Source: an uncultured archaeon
Lineage (GTDB): Archaea > Asgardarchaeota > Lokiarchaeia > Sigyniarchaeales > SOKP01
Direction: 5' to 3'
NCBI GenBank assembly: GCA_964525635.1
Contig: CAZGJX010000041.1
Location: forward strand, 1 to 33,275
DNA: 33,275 nt
Shown: piece after piece, positions 1-33,275 of the stretch
Numbering within the stretch: position 1 is the first letter of the stretch
How the letters are laid out: each line of letters opens with the position of its first letter
Position numbers and translations under genes: made by a program
Notes under the pieces: generated by a model
What the model saw: only the letters and a program-made list of their open reading frames with translations
Databases searched by the model: none
What the model was told of the DNA's origin: nothing

Positions 1-2
1 TT

Positions 3-3000
3 CGACAACATTTGGATTCCTATAATGATTTTATCGAAAATGAAATGCAACAAATTGTTGATGAAAGCGGGGAAGTTGTACCTGACTTATTAATTCATAT
101 TTCATGAATATACAGGAAATACCCGGTTTCAAAATCAAATTTGGTAAAATAAAGATAGGAAAACCAAAAGTTCGTGAAGCAGACGGCGCAACTATGGAGA
201 TTACTCCAATAGAGGCTAGAATAAGGGAGTTAAGTTATGCGGCAGATATAACTCTAGAAATGACACCAATAACTATTGATGAAAGAACTCAACGAGAAGA
301 ACCAGAAGAAACTCTTGATATATATATTGGAAAGATCCCAATTATGTTAAAAAGTTGTCGATGTCCCTTAGAAGACCTCTCAGAACGAGAATTAATTAAT
401 AGAGGAGAAGATCCATTAGATCCTGGTGGATATTTTATAATTAATGGTACTGAGCGTGTTTTAGTAACTCAAGAAGATTTGGCACCCAATCGAATTCTAG
501 CTGAAGAAGCTAGTAGAAGTTCAAGTGCCACTCATCAAGCAAAAGTTTTTTCGACAAGAAGTGGTTTTAGAGCGCCAGTAACGATAGAAAGAAAGAAAGA
601 TGGAAATCTAAGAGTATCTTTTCCTTCTGTACCTGGGAAAGTTCCACTTGCAATTTTGATGCGAGCCTTGGGATTACATTCAGATAAGGAAATATTCGAG
701 GCTATATCTGAAAATGAAGAAATTCAAAAAGAATTAATACCAGTAATAGATGTTGCATCTGAGATTCAAGTTTTAAAAGATCCTAAAAAATCTCAACAGA
801 ATGCCCTTGATTATATAGGTAAAAGGGTCGCTATTGGACAGACAAAAGATTACCGTATAAGAAGAGCATTACAGGTTTTAGATAGATATCTCTTACCTCA
901 TATAGGAAATAGTGAAGAAGATAGAATAAAGAAGTCCTATTATTTGGGGCAGATGGCTCAAAAAGTAATGGAACTTGCATTAGGATTAAGAGAAACTGAT
1001 GATAAAGATCATTATGCTAATAAACGCTTGAAACTTGCAGGAGATCTATTTACTTCATTATTTAGGGTAGCTTTTCTAAATCTTGTAAAAGATATTAAAT
1101 ATCAACTTGAACGTACTGCTGTAAGAGGTAGAGCCCCCAATATTAAAACTGCAGTAAGAGCAGATGTAATTACGGAAAGAATACGACATGCTCTTGCAAC
1201 TGGTAATTGGGTTGGAGGGAAAGCAGGAGTAAGTCAACTTCTTAATCGAACAAATCATGTTGGAACATTAAGTCATTTAAGACGAGTTATATCCCCATTA
1301 AGTAGAAGTCAACCACATTTTGAAGCACGAGATCTCCATCCAACACAATGGGGAAAAATATGTCCAGCGGAAACTCCTGAAGGGCCAAATTGTGGACTTG
1401 TAAAAAACCTTGGGCTTAGTTCTATAATATCCATTGGTGCAGAAGCTAGAATCATTGAGAATATATTAATTGATTTAGGGGTCGTTCCAATCAATGAAGT
1501 AAAAAATATAAAAGGGGAGAAGGTTAAAGTATTTCTTAATGGAAAATTAGTTGGAGTCCATCAAAAATTTGATGCATTCATCAGAGAAATTAGAGAAAAG
1601 CGCCGAAGAGGAGAAATTGGCCAATATGTTAATATAGGATATTATCATGATTCCAGAGAAATACAAATTAATTGTGATGCTGGACGAGCAACTAGACCAC
1701 TCTTTATTCTTAAAAATAAAAAATCACTGATTAGCGAAGAAGATGTTGAAAAAATTATACAAGAAAAATTAGTTTGGTCTGATCTAATTGAGAAAGGATT
1801 AATTGAATATTTAGATGCTGAAGAAGAAGAAAACGCATATATCGCAATGTTTGAAGAAGATATTAATGAGGAACATACACATCTTGAAATATCTCCTGCA
1901 GCTATCTTAGGCATTTGTGCATCAATTATTCCATTTCCTGAACACAATCAATCACCAAGAAATACGTATGAAGCAGGAATGGTTAAACAAGCTCTGGGAT
2001 TGTTTGCAGCAAATATGCATTTAAGATTGGATACCCGAGGTCATACTCTACATTACCCACAACAACCATTAGTTAAAACAAGTCCAATGGAAATTGTTGG
2101 TTTTAACAAACGCCCCGCAGGACAAAACTTTATTATTGCAATGATGAGCTTTGAAGGTTTTAATATAGAAGATGCAATTATTATTAATAAAGCTTCAATA
2201 GAACGAGGTCTTGCTCGAAGTCATTTTTTTAGAACTTATGATGCTGAAGAAAGAAAGTATCCCGGAGGAGAGGTTGATAAATTTGAGATTCCTGAAAGAG
2301 GTGTGAGAGGATTTAAATCTGCTGAATCTTATAGACTATTATCTGAGAATGATGGTATTATTGAACCTGAAACACAGGTAAATGGAGGAGATGTCTTGAT
2401 TGGAAGGACATCTCCACCAAGATTTATTAAATCATATGAAGAATTTGAATTAATGCAACCAAATCGACGTGAAACCTCAAAAAATATGAGACATAATGAA
2501 AAAGGAATTGTCGATACAGTCTTAATATCTGAAACAGTTGATGGAAACAAATTAGTAAAAATAAAAGTAAGAGATTTAAGAATTCCGGAATTAGGAGATA
2601 AATTTTCATCGAGACATGGTCAAAAAGGGGTATTAGGACTCATGGTTGATGAAGCTGATATGCCTTTTACATCAACAGGAGTAATTCCAGATATAATTAT
2701 AAATCCTCATGCTATGCCTTCAAGAATGACTTTAGGACAATTATTCGAGGGAATTAGTGGTAAAATTGCTTGTAATAATGGACGATTGGGAGACGCGACA
2801 GCATTTGAGTGGAAAAATATAACTAGATTGCAGGAAGAGTTGGTCGAGGCAGGGTTTGAATTTAATGGAAGAGAAACTATGTATAATGGAATTACTGGGA
2901 AAAAATATGAAGCAGGGATCTATTGCGCTCCAATTTATTATCAAAAGCTTTATCATCTTGTTGCAGATAAACTTCATGCACGAGCAAGAGGCCCAGTTCA

Positions 3001-3331
3001 AATATTAACAAGACAACCTACAGAAGGAAGGGCAAGAGAGGGAGGGCTAAGATTTGGAGAGATGGAAAGAGATTGTTTGGTTGGACATGGTTCTGCTTTA
3101 TTGTTGAAAGAAAGATTACTTGATGAATCAGATAAGACTATAATTTTAGTATGTGAAAAATGTGGACTTTTAGCAGTTTATGATAGAAATCGTGATAAAC
3201 GATATTGTCCTGTCTGTGGAGAAGGAACAACAATTTCTAAAGTTATTTGTTCATATGCCTTTAAATTACTTCTACAAGAAATGATGTCTTTAGGACTGGC
3301 TCCAAGACTTAAATTGAAAGAAAAAATCTGA
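3..3331 (+). CDS. rpoB: DNA-directed RNA polymerase subunit B (unsplit Rpo2), 5'-truncated by the window edge; exon 1 <3..86, predicted intron 87..118, exon 2 119..3331
   Basis: Frame 3 from nt 3 reads RQHLDSYNDFIENEMQQIVDESGEVVPD, the conserved Rpo2 N-terminus. ORF 104..3331 carries ETPEGPNCGLVKN, GDKFSSRHGQKG, RQPTEGRAREGGLRFGEMERD and the C-terminal CxxC..CxxC clamp zinc finger. Removing 87..118 joins the two frames. Confidence 0.97.
87..118 (+). other. Predicted 32-nt BHB-type intron in rpoB mRNA
   Basis: Outer helix GTA(78-80)/TAC(120-122); central 4-bp helix CCTG(81-84)/CAGG(113-116); 3-nt bulges AC^T(85-87) and AA^A(117-119); inner helices TAT(88-90)/ATA(110-112) and ATTCAT(93-98)/ATGAAT(104-109). 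Spliced junction CCT GAC ATA CCC GGT = P-D-I-P-G. Confidence 0.88.
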
Positions 3332-3464
3332 TTCTTCTTTATTTCTATATTTATTTCTTTTTTATTGTTATTTGAATTGAGATCTAGTTTTAAGAAAAAA
3401 CAGAAAAAAAAAATAAAAAAAAGAAATTATATTATATAATTTTCAAATAATTTATATTGTTGAC

Positions 3465-3908
3465 TTATAATGGGGCTTGTCCAAATAATCTCCAAATGAA
3501 TTCGTATAATTCTGGAACTAATGTAAATATAATATACAGAATAAAGATTGCAATTAATGAAACCCATAATGCAGAGTCCCATTTTAGATCAATTAGATAT
3601 TTAGTACATACTAATATTAAAAGAAATCCGAATATAATTACTAATCTCATTAAATAGTTAGTTGTACCCCTAATATCTGCTATCGGTTGTCCAATATAAT
3701 TTAAAACTTGCCCTACAGCATTCAAAATTATTGGTAGTAAGACGACAATTATTAATGCTAAAAGAAAGATCATTATAACTTTATCTGAAGCCTTATGCTT
3801 TGATTCGACTAAAATAACTACTATATAAATAACTAAAGCAATTATTATTACTGCGATAATCAATCCAAGAACAAAGAGTAATGTATCATCACCTTCTTGA
3901 AATAACAT
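3465..3908 (-). CDS. Hypothetical membrane protein (about 4 TM helices)
   Basis: 147 aa with four long hydrophobic stretches; GAGGT Shine-Dalgarno-like motif upstream on the minus strand. Confidence 0.8.
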   Translation of the reverse strand: MLFQEGDDTLLFVLGLIIAVIIIALVIYIVVILVESKHKASDKVIMIFLLALIIVVLLPIILNAVGQVLNYIGQPIADIRGTTNYLMRLVIIFGFLLILVCTKYLIDLKWDSALWVSLIAIFILYIIFTLVPELYEFIWRLFGQAPL

Positions 3909-4044
3909 TTTTTACTAACCTCAACTTTTTTTATTAATATATTTAGTGATTATAAAGTTATAGATTGCATTTTTTTTAAATATTAACATTTAAAAATATA
4001 GAAAAAATAATAAAAAATATCTCTATTAACTAATCCAATCGCAA

Positions 4045-4248
4045 TTACAATCCAAAACAAAGCAAAAAGAAATGAATTGAGAATCCTAAAAACACAGAGG
4101 CAATTATAATTAATATAATAGATAATTTAACAGATAATTCTCTACCATATTTTACATGAATTAGTAAAATAATAAATACAATTACTCCAAAAATGAAAAG
4201 TAGCCATGCAAAACTCCATAAAGTTGGGTCTGTAATTTGAGTCAACAT
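4045..4248 (-). CDS. Small hypothetical membrane protein (2 TM helices)
   Basis: 67 aa, two hydrophobic helices separated by a short basic loop. Confidence 0.65.
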   Translation of the reverse strand: MLTQITDPTLWSFAWLLFIFGVIVFIILLIHVKYGRELSVKLSIILIIIASVFLGFSIHFFLLCFGL

Positions 4249-4409
4249 ATAATAAAACCTATATTACTTTTAAAGTTCTTATAAACACGATTATAAATGT
4301 ATTTTTAGTTTTTAAATTAACTAGTGAATAAAAGTTTAAAGGTATGTGACCTTGATTATTAATAATCATTAGCAAAGAATATTGAAGATATAAAAATTAT
4401 TGATAAAAT

Positions 4410-5189
4410 ATGCATTTTTTAAAACAAATTATAGAGAATCCTAATCTAAAAAATCCAGCTAAAGAACATATGAATATTCATCGTCATTTCTATCGTTATT
4501 CAAAGGGTATTTTTATCGGTCCTGCTATTGAGATCAGAAGAACAGCATCCAAAATTTCTTTTAAAGGTTCTTTAGAGTATGAAGATATAATACAAGAGAT
4601 TGTATTAAAAACAATACCAGATAGTAATGTTAATATTGAAGGAGTTTTAATTTCAGGAGCAGATATTAAGGATTTAATTCGTGAATTAGGGGTAGATTGG
4701 GTATTAAAAGCATCAAAAGGTAAAACTAAGAATTATAAAGCTCTAATTTTAGAGGAAATAGGGAAAGAAAAACTTCTTAAAATTATTGAAGAACTTAGAA
4801 AGAATAGTTATTTATTAGTTTCATTTAATTCAGAAGATAAAACATATAAGTTAACTACAAATAAAAGACTGCCTGGTCCCTCAAAAAAGAAACCCGTTGA
4901 TGATGATGTTGCCAAGAGAATAGGTTTCTGTAAAGGAGATATAATTAACAATACAACAAATCTTGAAATTGTTTTAGATGAGCTGTTATATGATTTTAAA
5001 TCAGAACTCCCGGAAAAATGGAAGAAAATAACAATATTAAATAACTATAAGATAAATGAGCTCGAGATTCCCAAGGACATAAAGAATTCTGCAATGTTAA
5101 GAATTATGGCAATTAGAAAGGGAAAATTAATAAGAACCGCACAGATTGATGAAGAATCGGTTGAAAAACAATATTCTATTGTTGTTTAA
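4410..5189 (+). CDS. Hypothetical protein
   Basis: 259-aa ORF with genome-typical composition, directly upstream of tfe; no function recognised. Confidence 0.75.
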   Translation: MHFLKQIIENPNLKNPAKEHMNIHRHFYRYSKGIFIGPAIEIRRTASKISFKGSLEYEDIIQEIVLKTIPDSNVNIEGVLISGADIKDLIRELGVDWVLKASKGKTKNYKALILEEIGKEKLLKIIEELRKNSYLLVSFNSEDKTYKLTTNKRLPGPSKKKPVDDDVAKRIGFCKGDIINNTTNLEIVLDELLYDFKSELPEKWKKITILNNYKINELEIPKDIKNSAMLRIMAIRKGKLIRTAQIDEESVEKQYSIVV

Positions 5190-5251
5190 TAAACACAATC
5201 ATTAAATATAATTATTATTTAAATATTAAGGAACTAAAGGTTATTATAGAA

Positions 5252-5833
5252 ATGACAGAACTTAATCCATTATTAAAATCTTTCTTATATATTATTGGCG
5301 GAGAAATCGCGATAGAAGTAGGTATGGAATTATTAAATTCAGAAGACGAGGATATAACAGATGAGGATATAACAGATAATATAAAAGAAAAAATAAAAGG
5401 TAAGAAAGATTTTGAACCAGATGATGATGAAATTCTAAAATTGAATACAGTACGTAAAACATTATATAAATTATACTCTGAGAAGCTAGCTCAGTTCAGA
5501 AGAATACGAGATAAATCCACTGGATGGTTTATTTATTTTTGGTGGCACGAGTTTGATCTTTTAGATGAGATTTTATTGGAGAAAAAAAATTTACTGAGAC
5601 ATAAACTAAGGGATAGATTAGAATATGAAAAAACTAATTATTTTTTCTCATGTGAGGATTGTGATAAAAAACAGAGAAAACATACATTTAGTGATGCTTT
5701 TGAATTAAATTTTCGTTGTTCTGATTGTGGAGGTCAATTAATTGCTCAAGAAAATCAACATATTATACATTTTTTGAAAGAAAAAATAATTCAAAATCAA
5801 AAAGTTTCCATTTCCATTGATGATCATGTTTAA
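5252..5833 (+). CDS. tfe: Transcription factor E alpha subunit (TFE)
   Basis: Winged-helix motif ITDE..KLNTVRKTLYKLY..RIRDKSTGWFIYFW, followed by a zinc ribbon CEDC..AFELNFRCSDCG. Confidence 0.93.
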   Translation: MTELNPLLKSFLYIIGGEIAIEVGMELLNSEDEDITDEDITDNIKEKIKGKKDFEPDDDEILKLNTVRKTLYKLYSEKLAQFRRIRDKSTGWFIYFWWHEFDLLDEILLEKKNLLRHKLRDRLEYEKTNYFFSCEDCDKKQRKHTFSDAFELNFRCSDCGGQLIAQENQHIIHFLKEKIIQNQKVSISIDDHV

Positions 5834-13126: not shown

Positions 13127-14794
13127 TTATATTAATTTAGATCCACATTTATTACAAAAAGCATATTCTGGAGATAATTTTGAACCACATTTCTTACAAA
13201 CAACTTGTTTTACTATATCAGCAGGAATTTCATTTAAGTTAGTTGTGTATGTAGGATATAAAGTAATTGCTCCTGAATCTTTTTCTAGATCTTCTATATT
13301 TGGAATTATTCTTAAATCTGAAGATTCAGTATCGTTTATTGGAGATGCAAATGGTACGAATGCAGTCTTTTTTTCTTCTTCTTTATATGTTGTTGATTTA
13401 TAGTAAAGGGATTCAAACAACGAGGGAAGTTTTGAATTTTGCTCTTGTTCAATTTCTTGATATATTGGTGGTTCGACGATTAAATCTGCTTCCTTTGGTT
13501 GAATTACTTCTTTTTTTTCTTTTTTCTCCTTTTTCTCTTTTTTCTCCTTTTTCTTCTTTTTAGGTTTCTTTTTTTCTTTCTTTGCTTCTATAGGTTGTGG
13601 TATATAATCAAATAAAGAATCAGAGGCCTGTTCTCCTGATATACTAGATGAGCTAGGTTGATTAAAGGCAAAGGGAGGTGATTTTTCCGAGATTGGTTCT
13701 TGATCTTCAATAGATAGACCTGATTTAAACTGCTCTGGCCCTTCTATTGGAACGGGGGCATTAGAAGAGAATGGTATTGATTTTGGTTTGAAAGATTCGC
13801 TTACTAGTGGTTTTGTGGATGATGATACTTGAGAAAATTCCACACTTGCTCTTTCTTGCTGTAATTCCTCTGCTATTATCTCATCTGGAGTTTTAAAATC
13901 AAATTCAACTTTTTTATCTTTCTTAAGAGGTTCTGGGAGAGGTACTTCAGGTTCTATTTCTTGTCCAATTAGGGATTTTAAATCATCTGTTATCTTTTCA
14001 GATTCTGATTTATATGTTGGAGTTTGTGGTGCTTGGAAGAACTCTTGAGAGGATATAGGTTCAGTTTGTTGAGGGAGTTTATATTCAGGTTCCGGTTCAA
14101 ATGAATCATATTCAGATGAGAGGGGAATTGGTGATTCTGGAGTAAATGGTTGTTCATACACCTCATTTGATATAATTGCAGGTTCTTGCCCTAAAGCAGG
14201 TGATACAAGGACTTGTCCAGGAGCACATACTTTACCTTCTGCGATTAATCTGTCCGGGACACCCTCACCAATCATTAAACAAGCAAGGATTTGAAAACAA
14301 TCACCAACATTATCACCAGTTTTAGCAGAAGCTTCCATATAATATAAATTAAAATCTCGTGTAAAACTTTCAATTTCTTCCAAAGATACTGCTCTTTGTT
14401 CAATTAAATCACATTTATTTCCTACTAGAAGTAACGGGACTTCATTTTGTACATTTGCGCGTACTTCTTCTATCCATTGTGGTAAATGTTCAAAACTAGG
14501 AAGAGAAGTTAAATCAAACATAAGAAGAGCCCCCAAAGCTCCTCGATAATACATAGGACGTATAGAACTGAAACGTTCTTGACCCCCTGTATCCCATATT
14601 TGAAGTTTTGCTCTAATAATTTCTTCATCAGTTTCGACGGAAATAGTCCTAACGTGAAAATCTACTCCTATTGTCATTTTATAGTCTTCAGTAAAGAATC
14701 CTTTACTAAAACGGAGGGTCATAGCGGTTTTGCCGACTCCACCGTCACCTACAACGATAGACTTAAATAAGTAATCATAATCTTCTGCCATCAA
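13127..14794 (-). CDS. Rab-like small GTPase with long disordered tail and C-terminal zinc ribbon
   Basis: GDGGVGKT, TIGVDF, KLQIWDTGGQERF, YYRGA, NKCD, EASAK; P/E/S-rich tail; CKKCG..CNKCG; AGGAG SD upstream. Confidence 0.95.
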   Translation of the reverse strand: MMAEDYDYLFKSIVVGDGGVGKTAMTLRFSKGFFTEDYKMTIGVDFHVRTISVETDEEIIRAKLQIWDTGGQERFSSIRPMYYRGALGALLMFDLTSLPSFEHLPQWIEEVRANVQNEVPLLLVGNKCDLIEQRAVSLEEIESFTRDFNLYYMEASAKTGDNVGDCFQILACLMIGEGVPDRLIAEGKVCAPGQVLVSPALGQEPAIISNEVYEQPFTPESPIPLSSEYDSFEPEPEYKLPQQTEPISSQEFFQAPQTPTYKSESEKITDDLKSLIGQEIEPEVPLPEPLKKDKKVEFDFKTPDEIIAEELQQERASVEFSQVSSSTKPLVSESFKPKSIPFSSNAPVPIEGPEQFKSGLSIEDQEPISEKSPPFAFNQPSSSSISGEQASDSLFDYIPQPIEAKKEKKKPKKKKKEKKEKKEKKEKKEVIQPKEADLIVEPPIYQEIEQEQNSKLPSLFESLYYKSTTYKEEEKKTAFVPFASPINDTESSDLRIIPNIEDLEKDSGAITLYPTYTTNLNEIPADIVKQVVCKKCGSKLSPEYAFCNKCGSKLI

Positions 14795-20322: not shown

Positions 20323-20459
20323 TAGCGGGGATTGGATTTTCAGTTTACTGGAAACCAGCTACTCACTTTTGAACCAATGATCTCAGGGTTTCTTAAAGGA
20401 ACACAGTAGTTGTTCCATTTATGAGCCCTGCGGCATAAACCAGGCTAGCCCACCCCGCT
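20323..20459 (-). tRNA. Initiator tRNA-Met(CAT) with two introns: 37/38 (20390..20419) and T-loop 59/60 (20337..20367)
   Basis: A1-U72 acceptor AGCGGGG/CCCCGCT; three consecutive G-C pairs in the anticodon stem CAGGG/CCCTG; removing both BHB introns gives CT-CAT-AA and TTCAAAT loops. Confidence 0.93.
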
Positions 20460-30529: not shown

Positions 30530-31019
30530 ATTTAGTTAAAGCAATTATCAATTCTAAACTTTATCAAGGTATTATCATATTAATAAAATACTCTCTCTTA
30601 CCGTTTTAATAGAAAATATATTAAATAAACCAAAAAATTTTTAATATAAGATTTATTCTAATATTTTGTCGATGATATATTTTTTAGTATTATAACCCTA
30701 AAAGATCATCGAAAATTATTGGCAGGTATATATACCTCATCTGTGTGATGACGTATCTCCAATAATTGATATGGCTCCGAGGAAGTACATCATATATATG
30801 ATGATACATGAGACGGAAGCTTAAGCAATCATAAAATATACTAATCCTTGATTAGTTTAAGAAAACCATATCAAGCATGAGAAATTGTGCTCATAGGAAC
30901 AACTCCCTAAATAATGTAATATGTATGTCTTCAAGTTATAATTTCATATCGTCAAGAAATTATTTACCTCATACACATGCCTATGCGTGAGCTCTCTGAA
31001 CCTTTCCCCTATTAGATAC

Positions 31020-33275
31020 CAATACGCCTACACTATTTGGGGGATATCTAGGCTTGGGAACCGAAGAAGAGCGTAACAAGCTACGATAAGCTCGGGTTAG
31101 TCGCATGTAGACGTAGACCCCGAGATTCTTGAATTGGACATCCACTTGTGGCCCAATAATCCACAAGATTCCCATATGGGAAGGGGAACCCTGAGAAGTA
31201 AAACATTTTAGTATCAGGAGGAAAAGAAAACAAGAGTGATTCCGTTAGTAACGGCGAGCGAAAGCGGAACAGATCAAACCGAATCCTCAGAGAAATCTGA
31301 TGGAAATGTGGTGTTAGGACCTTGTACGACCTACTCAATGAAGATGAATATTCCTGGAAAGTTAAGCCAAAGAGCGTGATAGCCGCGTAATTATAAATTG
31401 AGAGGTTGCTTCAAGAGTTCCAGAGTAGTGCGGGATGGTTTTCTCGTACGAATATGCCAAATACACGTTGGCAAATCTAAATATGTCCCAAGACCGATAG
31501 CGCAGTAGTAGCGTGAGCGAAAGATGAAAAGAAACCCGGAAGGGCCGTGAAAAGCGCTTGAAACCAAATAGTTTAGTAAGGATGCAGCCTGAAAGGACAG
31601 ATTCTGCGTGAATGAATTCTGGTGACGGAAATTCAAAATGCAGAGGACTAGGGTTGCATCATCAGTCTGGAATCATTGGCCAGGGAGTTTATAGTAGAGG
31701 CGAGCTTAAGTGGTTCACCCACGAAGGCAAAGGGAAACCAATATTCTTGCAATCTAATTATCACATTAGGATAATCTATTCATCGAAAAATGGTTTTGCC
31801 ATTTGTAGCTGCTTAGTGAATCCTTCTAAGGAATTAGACCAGAAGAATGGTCTTAAAGGGCCTAAAGTCTCTGCTATAATACCCGAAGCCGGTCGATCTA
31901 TTCCTGGTTAAGATGAAGTCATTCGAAAGGATGATGGAGGTCTGCACCAGTGCTGACGTGCAATTCGCTTGGATGAACTGGGAATAGGAGCAAAAGGCTA
32001 ATCTAGATCGGTGATAGCTGGTTCCTCCCGAAGTTGGTGTCAGCCAAGTCTCAGACGAGGTTGCCAGTGGTGTAGAGCACTAATTGCGAAGTACGGGGGA
32101 GAGATCTCTCGCTTCGCTCTTAAACTCCGAAATTGCTGGCGCTTTAGACTCTGGGAAACGGGTTGGTGGGCGTAAAGTCCATCGCCGAGAAGGGAACAAC
32201 CTAGACTTGGGTTAAGGTCCCAAAGTGCAGGTTAAGTGTTAAACTAAAGGGCGTCATATTTCTAAAACAGCAAAAGGATAGGTATAGAAGTAGCTATTCC
32301 CTAACGAGTGTGTAACAACTCATTTGCCGAGAAATATGGCCCCGAAAATGGACGGGGCTCAAATCTGCCACCGAGACCCAAGGGCACGGGGAGAAGAACT
32401 CCGTGATCCGGTAGGGAGGCGTCCGGGTCGGGCAGAAGCAGGTGCGTAAGTTCCTGTGGACCGGCCTGGAGTGCAGATCCTGGCGAGAGTAAAAGCAAAG
32501 ATGGGTTAGAATCCCATCCGCCGAAAGGGCAAGGGTTTCTTCGCAATGCGTCGTCAGCGAAGAGTTAGTCGATCCTAAGTGCATCCTTAACTGGAGTGCG
32601 CGAAAGGGAAACAGGTTTATATTCCTGTACCACGGCACTACGATTGTGGTGACGCATGGTTCAGTGCTGACGGTTCAGGGTAGGTGGAATAGGGTTGTCG
32701 AATATTTCCCTATTTAAATGTATAAAGCTGGTGAATAGAGTAAATCTTAGACCCAGCTAAAATCATGAATAGCCATCCAAATGTGGAAGGTTCCGCCGAG
32801 CCCAGGATCTAATAAAAAGGCACTAACAAGAAATGCCGTGTTCGTACCCAGAACCAACACAGGTGCCCCTAGGTGAGTAGCCTTAGGCGTTTTCGTGTAA
32901 AGGAGGTTAGGGAAATCGACAAATTAGAGCCGTAACTTTGGGAAAAGGCTTGCTTGCGAACTTCTATACGCCTTACAGTGTATGGGGGCTCTCAAGTCGC
33001 AGTAACTAGGGGGGGACGACTGTTTAATAAAAACATAGGTCTCTGATAGAGCGAAAGCTTGTTTACAGAGGCTGAAACCTGGCCAGTGGCAGTTTGATAA
33101 ATCCGGGTTACAACCCGAGTAAGTCCTGCTAAACGCCGGGAGTAACTATAACTCTCTTAAGGTAGCCAAATGCCTTGTCTGGTAAGTTCAGACGTGCTTG
33201 AATGGTTCAACGTTCTCCCTATTGTCCCAACCTTCTGACGATTGAAATCACACTCCGGCGAACGGTCCGGAGATA
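31020..33275 (+). rRNA. 23S rRNA, 5' part (3' truncated by the window; 5' end approximate)
   Basis: Sharp GC rise and conserved LSU motifs: GATTCCGTTAGTAACGGCGAGCGAA, GACCGATAGCG, GATAGCTGGTTC, GACTGTTTAATAAAAACATAG, CTCTTAAGGTAGCCAAATGCCT. Confidence 0.97.

What the first reader, a model, noticed from the sequence alone, without database searches (positions are those of the whole stretch)
63..130. Candidate BHB (tRNA-endonuclease-type) intron in the mRNA of RNA polymerase subunit B
Seen: the conserved RpoB N-terminus (RQHLDSYNDF...GEVVPD, frame 3) hits a stop at 105-107, and the rest (IPGFKIK...) is in frame 2. The intervening DNA folds into a canonical BHB: GTA|CCTG|ACT|TAT...ATA|CAGG|AAA|TAC. 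That is a 4-bp CCTG/CAGG helix with a 3-nt bulge 3' of it on each strand, an inner ATTCAT/ATGAAT hairpin, and extra exon-exon pairing between 63-70 and 123-130. Established: archaeal EndA cuts after the 2nd nucleotide of each bulge. Those cuts remove exactly 87..118 (32 nt), restore the frame and give DESGEVVPDIPGFKIKFGK, which as I recall aligns without gaps to crenarchaeal RpoB. Inference: this essential gene needs EndA/RtcB splicing of its mRNA. The established archaeal example is crenarchaeal cbf5; I know of none described for rpoB in an Asgard archaeon. Gene callers would miss it by starting at the ATG inside the intron.
Basis: partly seen in the sequence, partly recalled or inferred. Interest (0 to 1): 0.96.

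Follow-up and report, generated by a model that had tools for sequence, protein, structure and literature searches.

The report
tRNA-type mini-intron in Asgard rpoB
The only gene for RNA polymerase subunit B in this Asgard archaeon (a Lokiarchaeon) is broken by a real 32-base insert shaped like a tRNA intron, one of at least eight such inserts in its protein genes, so its messenger RNA very probably has to be cut and rejoined by the tRNA-splicing enzymes, which has been shown inside a coding region for only one archaeal gene (cbf5).

Summary
Confirmed. The single rpoB of this Promethearchaeota (Loki) genome is interrupted by 32 nt (87-118). Bulge-helix-bulge (BHB) cuts remove exactly this stretch and give a 1123-aa protein, gap-free against intron-less relatives. 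The insert is real DNA (independent assemblies, three runs). It is kept in two congeners with about 45% synonymous divergence and one compensatory stem change, and is absent from the other 141 matched genomes of the order. Shuffled inserts give this motif in 5e-5 of trials. The genome encodes an Aeropyrum-type (αβ)2 EndA with the broad-specificity loop, plus RtcB and archease. A homology screen of 657 genes found seven more 30-32-nt frame-breaking inserts (IF-2, EF-2, S27a and others); their central helices covary in relatives. Caveats: no RNA data; the outer exon helix is not in the minimum-energy fold; and an AUGA stop-start overlap inside the insert allows a translationally coupled split-protein reading (about 5%). 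Only cbf5 (coding region) and HVO_1309 (5' UTR) are published archaeal EndA mRNA introns in the library searched. The scan has noted the same kind of intron before, in this genome and in other Asgard genomes (rpoA1, rpoA2, rpo10), but not in rpoB.

The parts
1..86 (+). 3' part of rpoB exon 1 (codons 26-53, ending ...VVPD). The first 25 codons and rpoH lie upstream on contig C189 / locus L039.
   Evidence: Pfam RNA_pol_Rpb2_1 positions 1-28
87..118 (+). 32-nt phase-0 insert, predicted EndA-excised intron; shifts the frame and carries a TGA in the exon-1 frame
119..3331 (+). rpoB exon 2 (1070 codons, IPGFKIK... to stop)
78..87 (+). 5' strand of the BHB: exon helix GTA (78-80), central helix CCTG (81-84), bulge AC^T (85-87; predicted cut 86/87)
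113..122 (+). 3' strand of the BHB: central helix CAGG (113-116), bulge AA^A (117-119; predicted cut 118/119), exon helix TAC (120-122)
88..112 (+). Intron hairpin: 88-90/110-112 and 93-98/104-109 with a 5-nt loop; U94-A108 becomes A94-U108 in congeners
104..107 (+). AUGA stop-start overlap inside the intron stem: TGA of the exon-1 frame and the ATG used by gene callers (exon-2 frame)
63..70 (+). 5' arm of the extended exon-exon pairing
123..130 (+). 3' arm of the extended exon-exon pairing (kept by a register shift in congeners)

Best explanation
The rpoH-rpoB transcript folds around nt 78-122 into a BHB or a slightly relaxed BHB. The cell's (αβ)2 tRNA-splicing endonuclease cuts at 86/87 and 118/119, RtcB with archease ligates the exons, and the mature mRNA encodes a normal 1123-aa subunit B; the 32-nt intron probably circularises. 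The intron was gained once in the ancestor of this genus (or spread among its members) and persists because it is removable. It belongs to a population of roughly 30-nt AU-rich hairpin introns that this lineage carries in tRNAs and in about 1% of its conserved protein genes. SHOWN: the insert, its limits by homology, BHB geometry, conservation and covariation, the intact enzyme genes, the sibling inserts. INFERRED: transcription, cleavage, ligation and circularisation.
For: Deleting 87-118 restores a gap-free alignment to 27 intron-less relatives. The gene is split in only 3 of 144 genomes of the order, all in one genus, and it is single-copy in G000. The BHB register gives Asp at the junction, as in all 21 intron-less same-family relatives inspected; left-shifted cuts would give Glu. 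Null probability of the motif is 5e-5. The intron differs at 4/32 and 0/32 sites between species whose 4-fold sites differ by 41-46%; the changes are one bulge base, a compensatory pair and a register shift, and all four alter amino acids if the stretch is read as protein. EndA alpha best matches A. pernix (E 4e-37), keeping Y/H/K, R, W and the KPR loop (PMC3241643); a beta subunit, RtcB and archease are present. There are seven sibling 30-32-nt inserts, five of them in frame with stops; the central helix is fully paired in five and 3/4 paired in two, and no mirror control reaches 4/4. Central-helix covariation occurs at the EF-2 site (AUGG/CCAU vs ACGG/CUGU) and the phosphorylase site (UAGC/GCUA vs CAGC/GCUG).
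Against: No spliced RNA or peptide has been seen. The canonical outer exon helix is energetically disfavoured in the folding model. At rpoB the central and outer helices never vary among only three species, so the local covariation is one pair and does not beat the shuffle control (171/500). The conserved AUGA overlap (2.3% by chance) offers an alternative route. A motif-only genome scan was not enriched over decoy geometries (27 vs 16-20), so the motif counts only together with homology.
Confidence: 0.88

Rival explanations
1. Translationally coupled split gene. The ribosome terminates at TGA 105-107 and reinitiates at the overlapping ATG 104-106, giving a 59-aa N-terminal piece and a 1075-aa piece that assemble into subunit B. 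It could also act as a fallback on unspliced mRNA alongside splicing.
For: The AUGA overlap is kept in all three species and arises by chance in 2.3% of shuffles. Archaeal RNAP subunits are naturally split at other positions (B'/B'' models). Eukaryotic Rpb2 is 11-25 aa longer over this region; from memory, the extra residues form a loop near this site, so it may tolerate a break.
Against: It does not explain the BHB, whose chance probability is about 500-fold lower. The AUG is buried in the stem (pairing probability about 0.8), and stem pairing alone explains its conservation. All four intron substitutions change amino acids in a 94-96% identical protein. None of the seven sibling inserts has a usable restart codon, and they break P-loops or a zinc ribbon.
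Confidence: 0.05
2. Recoding on unspliced mRNA: a -1 frameshift within 87-104 (adds about 11 residues), or translational bypassing of the hairpin as with T4 gene 60 or mitochondrial byps (mechanisms known from my own knowledge).
For: A short hairpin insert of byp-like size, with frame 2 open from nt 86.
Against: No X XXY YYZ slippery heptamer is visible in 87-107. No matched take-off/landing codons were found (GAC or GAT vs GAA). Five sibling inserts are in frame with stop codons, which frameshifting cannot rescue. None of the 141 relatives has an indel here.
Confidence: 0.03
3. Excision is real but done by another route (DNA-level excision or a different nuclease/ligase), or the geometry cut differs from the canonical one.
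For: The MFE shows an internal loop rather than a clean 3' bulge. Several sibling inserts have only a 0-1 bp outer helix.
Against: No contig shows an intron-less DNA form (contigs only). Cut positions deduced from homology match the EndA rule in all eight inserts. CSL-type EndA cuts relaxed motifs (PMC3241643), and cbf5 motifs are relaxed too (PMC2738675).
Confidence: 0.03
4. Assembly artefact or dead pseudogene.
For: It lies near a contig end in a metagenome-assembled genome.
Against: An independent JGI assembly is 100% identical over 2 kb (L039). It is spanned by contigs in runs X1, X2 and X3. It is present in two other species and one further contig. This is the only rpoB and it is otherwise intact, under purifying selection.
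Confidence: 0.01

Closest known systems
cbf5 pre-mRNA BHB intron of Desulfurococcales/Sulfolobales (Watanabe 2002; Yokobori 2009, PMC2738675)
   Same: Short intron inside a protein-coding region, BHB-type junctions, cut between bulge nucleotides 2 and 3, host with (αβ)2 EndA carrying the Crenarchaea-specific loop; patchy presence among relatives.
   Different: A different gene (core RNA polymerase subunit B), a different phylum (Asgard), a recent genus-level gain rather than an ancient one, and one of many such inserts in the genome rather than a single case. Splicing is demonstrated for cbf5 and not here.
HVO_1309 intron of Haloferax volcanii (PMC7714728; PMC10485636)
   Same: EndA-cleaved BHB intron in an mRNA.
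   Different: It lies in the 5' UTR and does not break a reading frame; α2-type enzyme.
Non-canonical tRNA introns of Asgard archaea (PMC11291895; bioRxiv 10.64898/2026.10.13.758758)
   Same: Same motif and enzyme, repeated lineage-specific gains, unknown arrival route. This genome's tRNA introns of 28-32 nt have the same AU-rich hairpin build.
   Different: Those papers treat tRNA genes only; the preprint's text never mentions mRNA or cbf5. No sequence match of the rpoB intron to any other place in the genome was found.
IRE1/RtcB splicing of HAC1/XBP1 mRNA (PMC13149111)
   Same: Spliceosome-independent removal of a short frame-shifting intron by an endonuclease plus a tRNA ligase.
   Different: Different nuclease and motif (dual stem-loops); stress-regulated, whereas the rpoB intron is presumably removed constitutively.

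Membership tests
Archaeal EndA-spliced (BHB) pre-mRNA intron, cbf5 type | Intervening sequence absent from orthologues whose removal restores the reading frame | tested here: met
Archaeal EndA-spliced (BHB) pre-mRNA intron, cbf5 type | 4-bp central helix with 3-nt bulges 3' of it, junctions after bulge nucleotide 2 | tested here: met
   junction residue Asp agrees with orthologues
Archaeal EndA-spliced (BHB) pre-mRNA intron, cbf5 type | Outer exon-exon helix closing the 3' bulge | tested here: inconclusive
   3 bp possible and invariant in 3 species but probability about 0.001 in the ensemble; longer exon-exon pairing just outside it is in the MFE
Archaeal EndA-spliced (BHB) pre-mRNA intron, cbf5 type | Structure maintained by compensatory change | tested here: inconclusive
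   One compensatory pair at rpoB, not above shuffles with 3 sequences; clear central-helix covariation at sibling inserts
Archaeal EndA-spliced (BHB) pre-mRNA intron, cbf5 type | Host encodes catalytically intact, broad-specificity EndA plus RtcB/archease | tested here: met
Archaeal EndA-spliced (BHB) pre-mRNA intron, cbf5 type | Spliced mRNA in vivo and cleavage by EndA in vitro | not testable with these tools
   No RNA holder listed
Programmed translational bypass element (byp / gene 60 type) | Matched take-off and landing codons flanking the insert | tested here: not met
Programmed -1 frameshift | Slippery heptamer before the stop | tested here: not met
   Read directly from nt 87-107; codons TTA TTA ATT CAT ATT TCA TGA
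Translationally coupled split gene | Stop-start overlap with the start in the downstream frame | tested here: met
   AUGA at 104-107, conserved
Translationally coupled split gene | Added residues conserved as protein; two products in vivo | tested here: inconclusive
   4 of 11 added residues differ between congeners; products not testable
Group I / group II self-splicing intron | Ribozyme core of hundreds of nucleotides | tested here: not met
   32 nt only; no Rfam hit in this part of the window

The most novel reading that the evidence does not exclude
This Lokiarchaeia lineage uses the tRNA-splicing machinery as a general mRNA-splicing system: about 1% of its conserved protein genes (at least 8 among about 660 tested, so probably some tens genome-wide), including RNA polymerase B, IF-2, an EF-2 and ribosomal protein S27a, carry roughly 30-nt BHB introns that are gained and lost between sister species. 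Core gene expression would thus depend on spliceosome-independent splicing in the prokaryotic group closest to eukaryotes.
Probability: 0.8. Interest if true: 0.88.

Novelty: new variant of a known kind. Interest (0 to 1): 0.78.

Why it matters
If true, mRNA splicing in archaea is not a curiosity of one or two genes but routine in an Asgard lineage, and essential: without EndA/RtcB the cell could make no intact RNA polymerase subunit B. It shows that protein genes of eukaryote relatives can accumulate introns with no spliceosome, which bears on how intron tolerance and RtcB-type mRNA splicing (HAC1/XBP1) arose. Congeners that differ by single introns (S27a, IF-2) make intron gain directly testable, the question left open for Asgard tRNA introns. 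In practice, public annotations of these genomes carry truncated or split core proteins (the 1075-aa RpoB is what was deposited), which affects marker-gene phylogenies and gene-loss claims.

Tried and rejected
No RNA holder was listed for the region; this is no evidence either way. All four runs laid were contigs, so rare intron-less alleles cannot be excluded. A motif-plus-ORF genome scan without homology showed no real excess over mirror and wrong-bulge decoys (27 vs 20/19/16; the first attempt timed out), so it was not used as evidence. A search for copies of the intron elsewhere in the genome found only short AT-rich chance matches: no donor identified. Pattern searches for an insert at the same site outside the genus gave only non-rpoB chance hits (L037, L042, L043, L143, L144, L148-L156); the patterns are specific to this family's sequence, so divergent Asgard rpoB genes were not really tested. 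A co-conversion tract was looked for: divergence dips mildly over about -90..+120 but is not clearly separable from protein conservation. The homology screen missed rpoB itself (probably the contig edge) and returned about 20 short or doubtful breaks (3-24 nt, 39 nt, and one doubtful 30-nt call on C40) that were not pursued, so its count is a lower bound. Complex prediction on the two halves was not run because split-gene halves pass by likeness to solved structures. Literature: nine searches found no report of Asgard mRNA introns; the library lacks most subscription papers.

Full report
Observation. The window begins inside rpoB. Frame 3 reads RQHLDSYNDF...ESGEVVPD, continues LLIHIS and stops at TGA 105-107; the remainder is a 1075-codon ORF in frame 2 from ATG 104, which NCBIfam matches to unsplit archaeal subunit B from profile position 54 on. 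The first 25 codons and rpoH lie on contig C189, which overlaps the window by 55 nt, and on the independent contig L039. Deleting 87..118 gives a 1098-codon frame in the window, 1123 aa in all, the commonest length among the cluster members listed. The BHB is as described: GTA/TAC, CCTG/CAGG, bulges ACT and AAA, inner hairpin.

Reality of the DNA. A JGI contig is 100% identical over 2 kb including the insert. Logan contigs from three salt-marsh runs span it with no joint or indel; X1 may be the source, X2 and X3 are other samples, and X3 also holds a congener-type variant. Record titles place the congeners in Promethearchaeota.

Distribution. An intron-less N-terminal query matched 144 of 154 genomes of the order. 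Only G000, G001 and G002, all of one genus, are split, and G000 has no second rpoB. The fourth congener has no hit (89% complete). The spliced sequence aligns without gaps to 27 intron-less loci, and the intron-less query aligns without gaps across the site to Thermococcales and Sulfolobales RpoB. All 21 intron-less same-family sequences inspected have PD|IPG; the BHB cut gives D, whereas cuts shifted left would give E. No insert at this site was found outside the genus, within the limits of the patterns.

Chance and selection. With the junction fixed by homology, shuffled inserts form the 4-bp Watson-Crick central helix in 2.4e-4 of trials and helix plus inner stem in 5e-5. The three species differ at 41-46% of 4-fold sites, yet the intron differs at 4 of 32 (G000 vs the others) and 0 of 32 (G001 vs G002), and nt 57-85 are identical. 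The four changes are the first bulge base, a compensatory U94-A108 to A94-U108, and a change at 110 that shifts the stem register; all four are non-synonymous if translated. With three sequences the covariation does not exceed shuffles. The folding model supports the central helix and inner stem (p about 0.8) but prefers an internal loop to the 3-bp exon helix; the canonical form is 4.4 kcal/mol above the MFE, against 2.7 for a tRNA-Ala intron of the same genome taken out of its tRNA context.

Machinery. The genome has two EndA paralogues. One matches A. pernix EndA alpha best (E 4e-37) with the catalytic Tyr/His/Lys, the Arg and Trp recognition residues and a KPR motif aligned to the Crenarchaea-specific loop, which confers cleavage of relaxed motifs at any position (PMC3241643). 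RtcB and archease are intact. Its tRNAs carry 28-32-nt AU-rich hairpin introns with BHB junctions, including a two-intron tRNA-Met in this window.

Not a lone case. Earlier scan notes listed further candidates in this genome, so I tested this independently. A motif-only scan did not beat decoys. A homology screen with proteins from 1.6 Mb of an other-genus relative matched 657 genes and found seven further clear frame-breaking inserts, all 30-32 nt: a Ras-family GTPase (C27), ThiF/E1-like (C178), nucleoside/AMP phosphorylase (C109), ribosomal S27a (C7), IF-2 (C19), MoxR (C1) and an EF-2 (C151). The central helix at the EndA register is fully paired in five and 3/4 in two; the mirror control never reaches 4/4. 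Outer exon helices are often only 0-1 bp, so many motifs are relaxed. Five inserts are in frame with stops; none has matched take-off/landing codons or a usable restart. In relatives the central helix covaries: AUGG/CCAU vs ACGG/CUGU at EF-2, UAGC/GCUA vs UAGU/GCUA vs CAGC/GCUG at the phosphorylase. The S27a and IF-2 introns are present in G000 and G002 but absent from G001 and G003, so there is turnover within the genus.

Mechanism and rivals. Best reading (0.88): EndA cuts at 86/87 and 118/119 and RtcB joins the exons; the geometry and enzymes are shown, the reaction is inferred. It would yield 59-aa and 1075-aa pieces. It leaves the BHB unexplained, the AUG is buried in the stem, and the sibling inserts lack it; it might still serve as a fallback on unspliced mRNA. 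Frameshifting or bypassing (0.03) fails the slippery-site and matched-codon tests. An artefact (0.01) is excluded.

Comparison with what is known. It works like the crenarchaeal cbf5 intron (PMC2738675) and meets every genomic criterion that could be decided; the defining RNA evidence is untestable here. Reviews list cbf5 and the 5' UTR intron of HVO_1309 as the archaeal cases (PMC7714728, PMC10485636). Asgard intron papers concern tRNAs only (PMC11291895; 10.64898/2026.10.13.758758). Nine searches found no published Asgard mRNA intron, in a library that lacks most subscription journals. The scan's own notes report the same kind in rpoA1, rpoA2, rpo10 and other genes of other Asgard genomes; these are unchecked AI notes and were not counted as support. 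Gene callers deposited the truncated 1075-aa protein at NCBI and JGI.

Verdict. Observation confirmed, interpretation supported. A new variant of a known kind: known chemistry, but in an essential gene, a new phylum and on a genome-wide scale.

Noticed in passing
window 20323-20459 (-): tRNA-Met(CAT), initiator-like, with two introns: about 30 nt at 37/38 (about 20419-20390) and 31 nt in the T arm (20367-20337, perfect central helix). Missed by ARAGORN and Rfam.
   Followed up: partly
G000 C151:5048-5079 (L142) and C19:11080-11109 (L140); G006 L132: EF-2 and IF-2 carry different-sequence introns at the identical position in the P-loop motif DHGK|T, and in G006 a third translational GTPase (eIF2-gamma-like by sequence) has one there too: a possible insertion hotspot shared by paralogues.
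   Followed up: partly
G000 C7:6422-6451 (L139): 30-nt in-frame intron starting with TAA in ribosomal protein S27a; present in G002, absent in G001 and G003.
   Followed up: yes
G000 C109:3066-3095 (L138): 30-nt intron in a nucleoside/AMP phosphorylase gene, shared by four congeners and G006 (another genus), absent in G017; compensatory changes in the central helix and stem; no outer exon helix.
   Followed up: yes
G000 C27:33768-33797, C178:567-596, C1:63071-63101: Further BHB-type inserts in a Ras-family GTPase (at the G3 motif), a ThiF/E1-like gene and moxR.
   Followed up: partly
window 3331-5833: rpoB is not followed by rpoA1/rpoA2; next come a convergent 147-aa ORF, a 259-aa ORF without family hits and tfe. 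Other scan notes see the same in related genomes.
   Followed up: no
G000 C54:19098-26273 and C146:5782-8433: Arrays of 22 and 6 mostly intron-less tRNA genes, unlike the scattered intron-rich tRNAs elsewhere; possibly from a mobile element or a contaminating contig.
   Followed up: no
window 13127-14794 (-): 555-aa protein with an N-terminal Ras-family GTPase domain and a C-terminal zinc ribbon.
   Followed up: no
window 31016-33275 (+): Archaeal 23S rRNA gene running off the contig end, with no 16S Rfam hit upstream in the window.
   Followed up: no
G000 C41:1-55 / C189:4834-4888: The assembly breaks inside rpoB exon 1 with a 55-nt overlap; contig L039 bridges it.
   Followed up: yes
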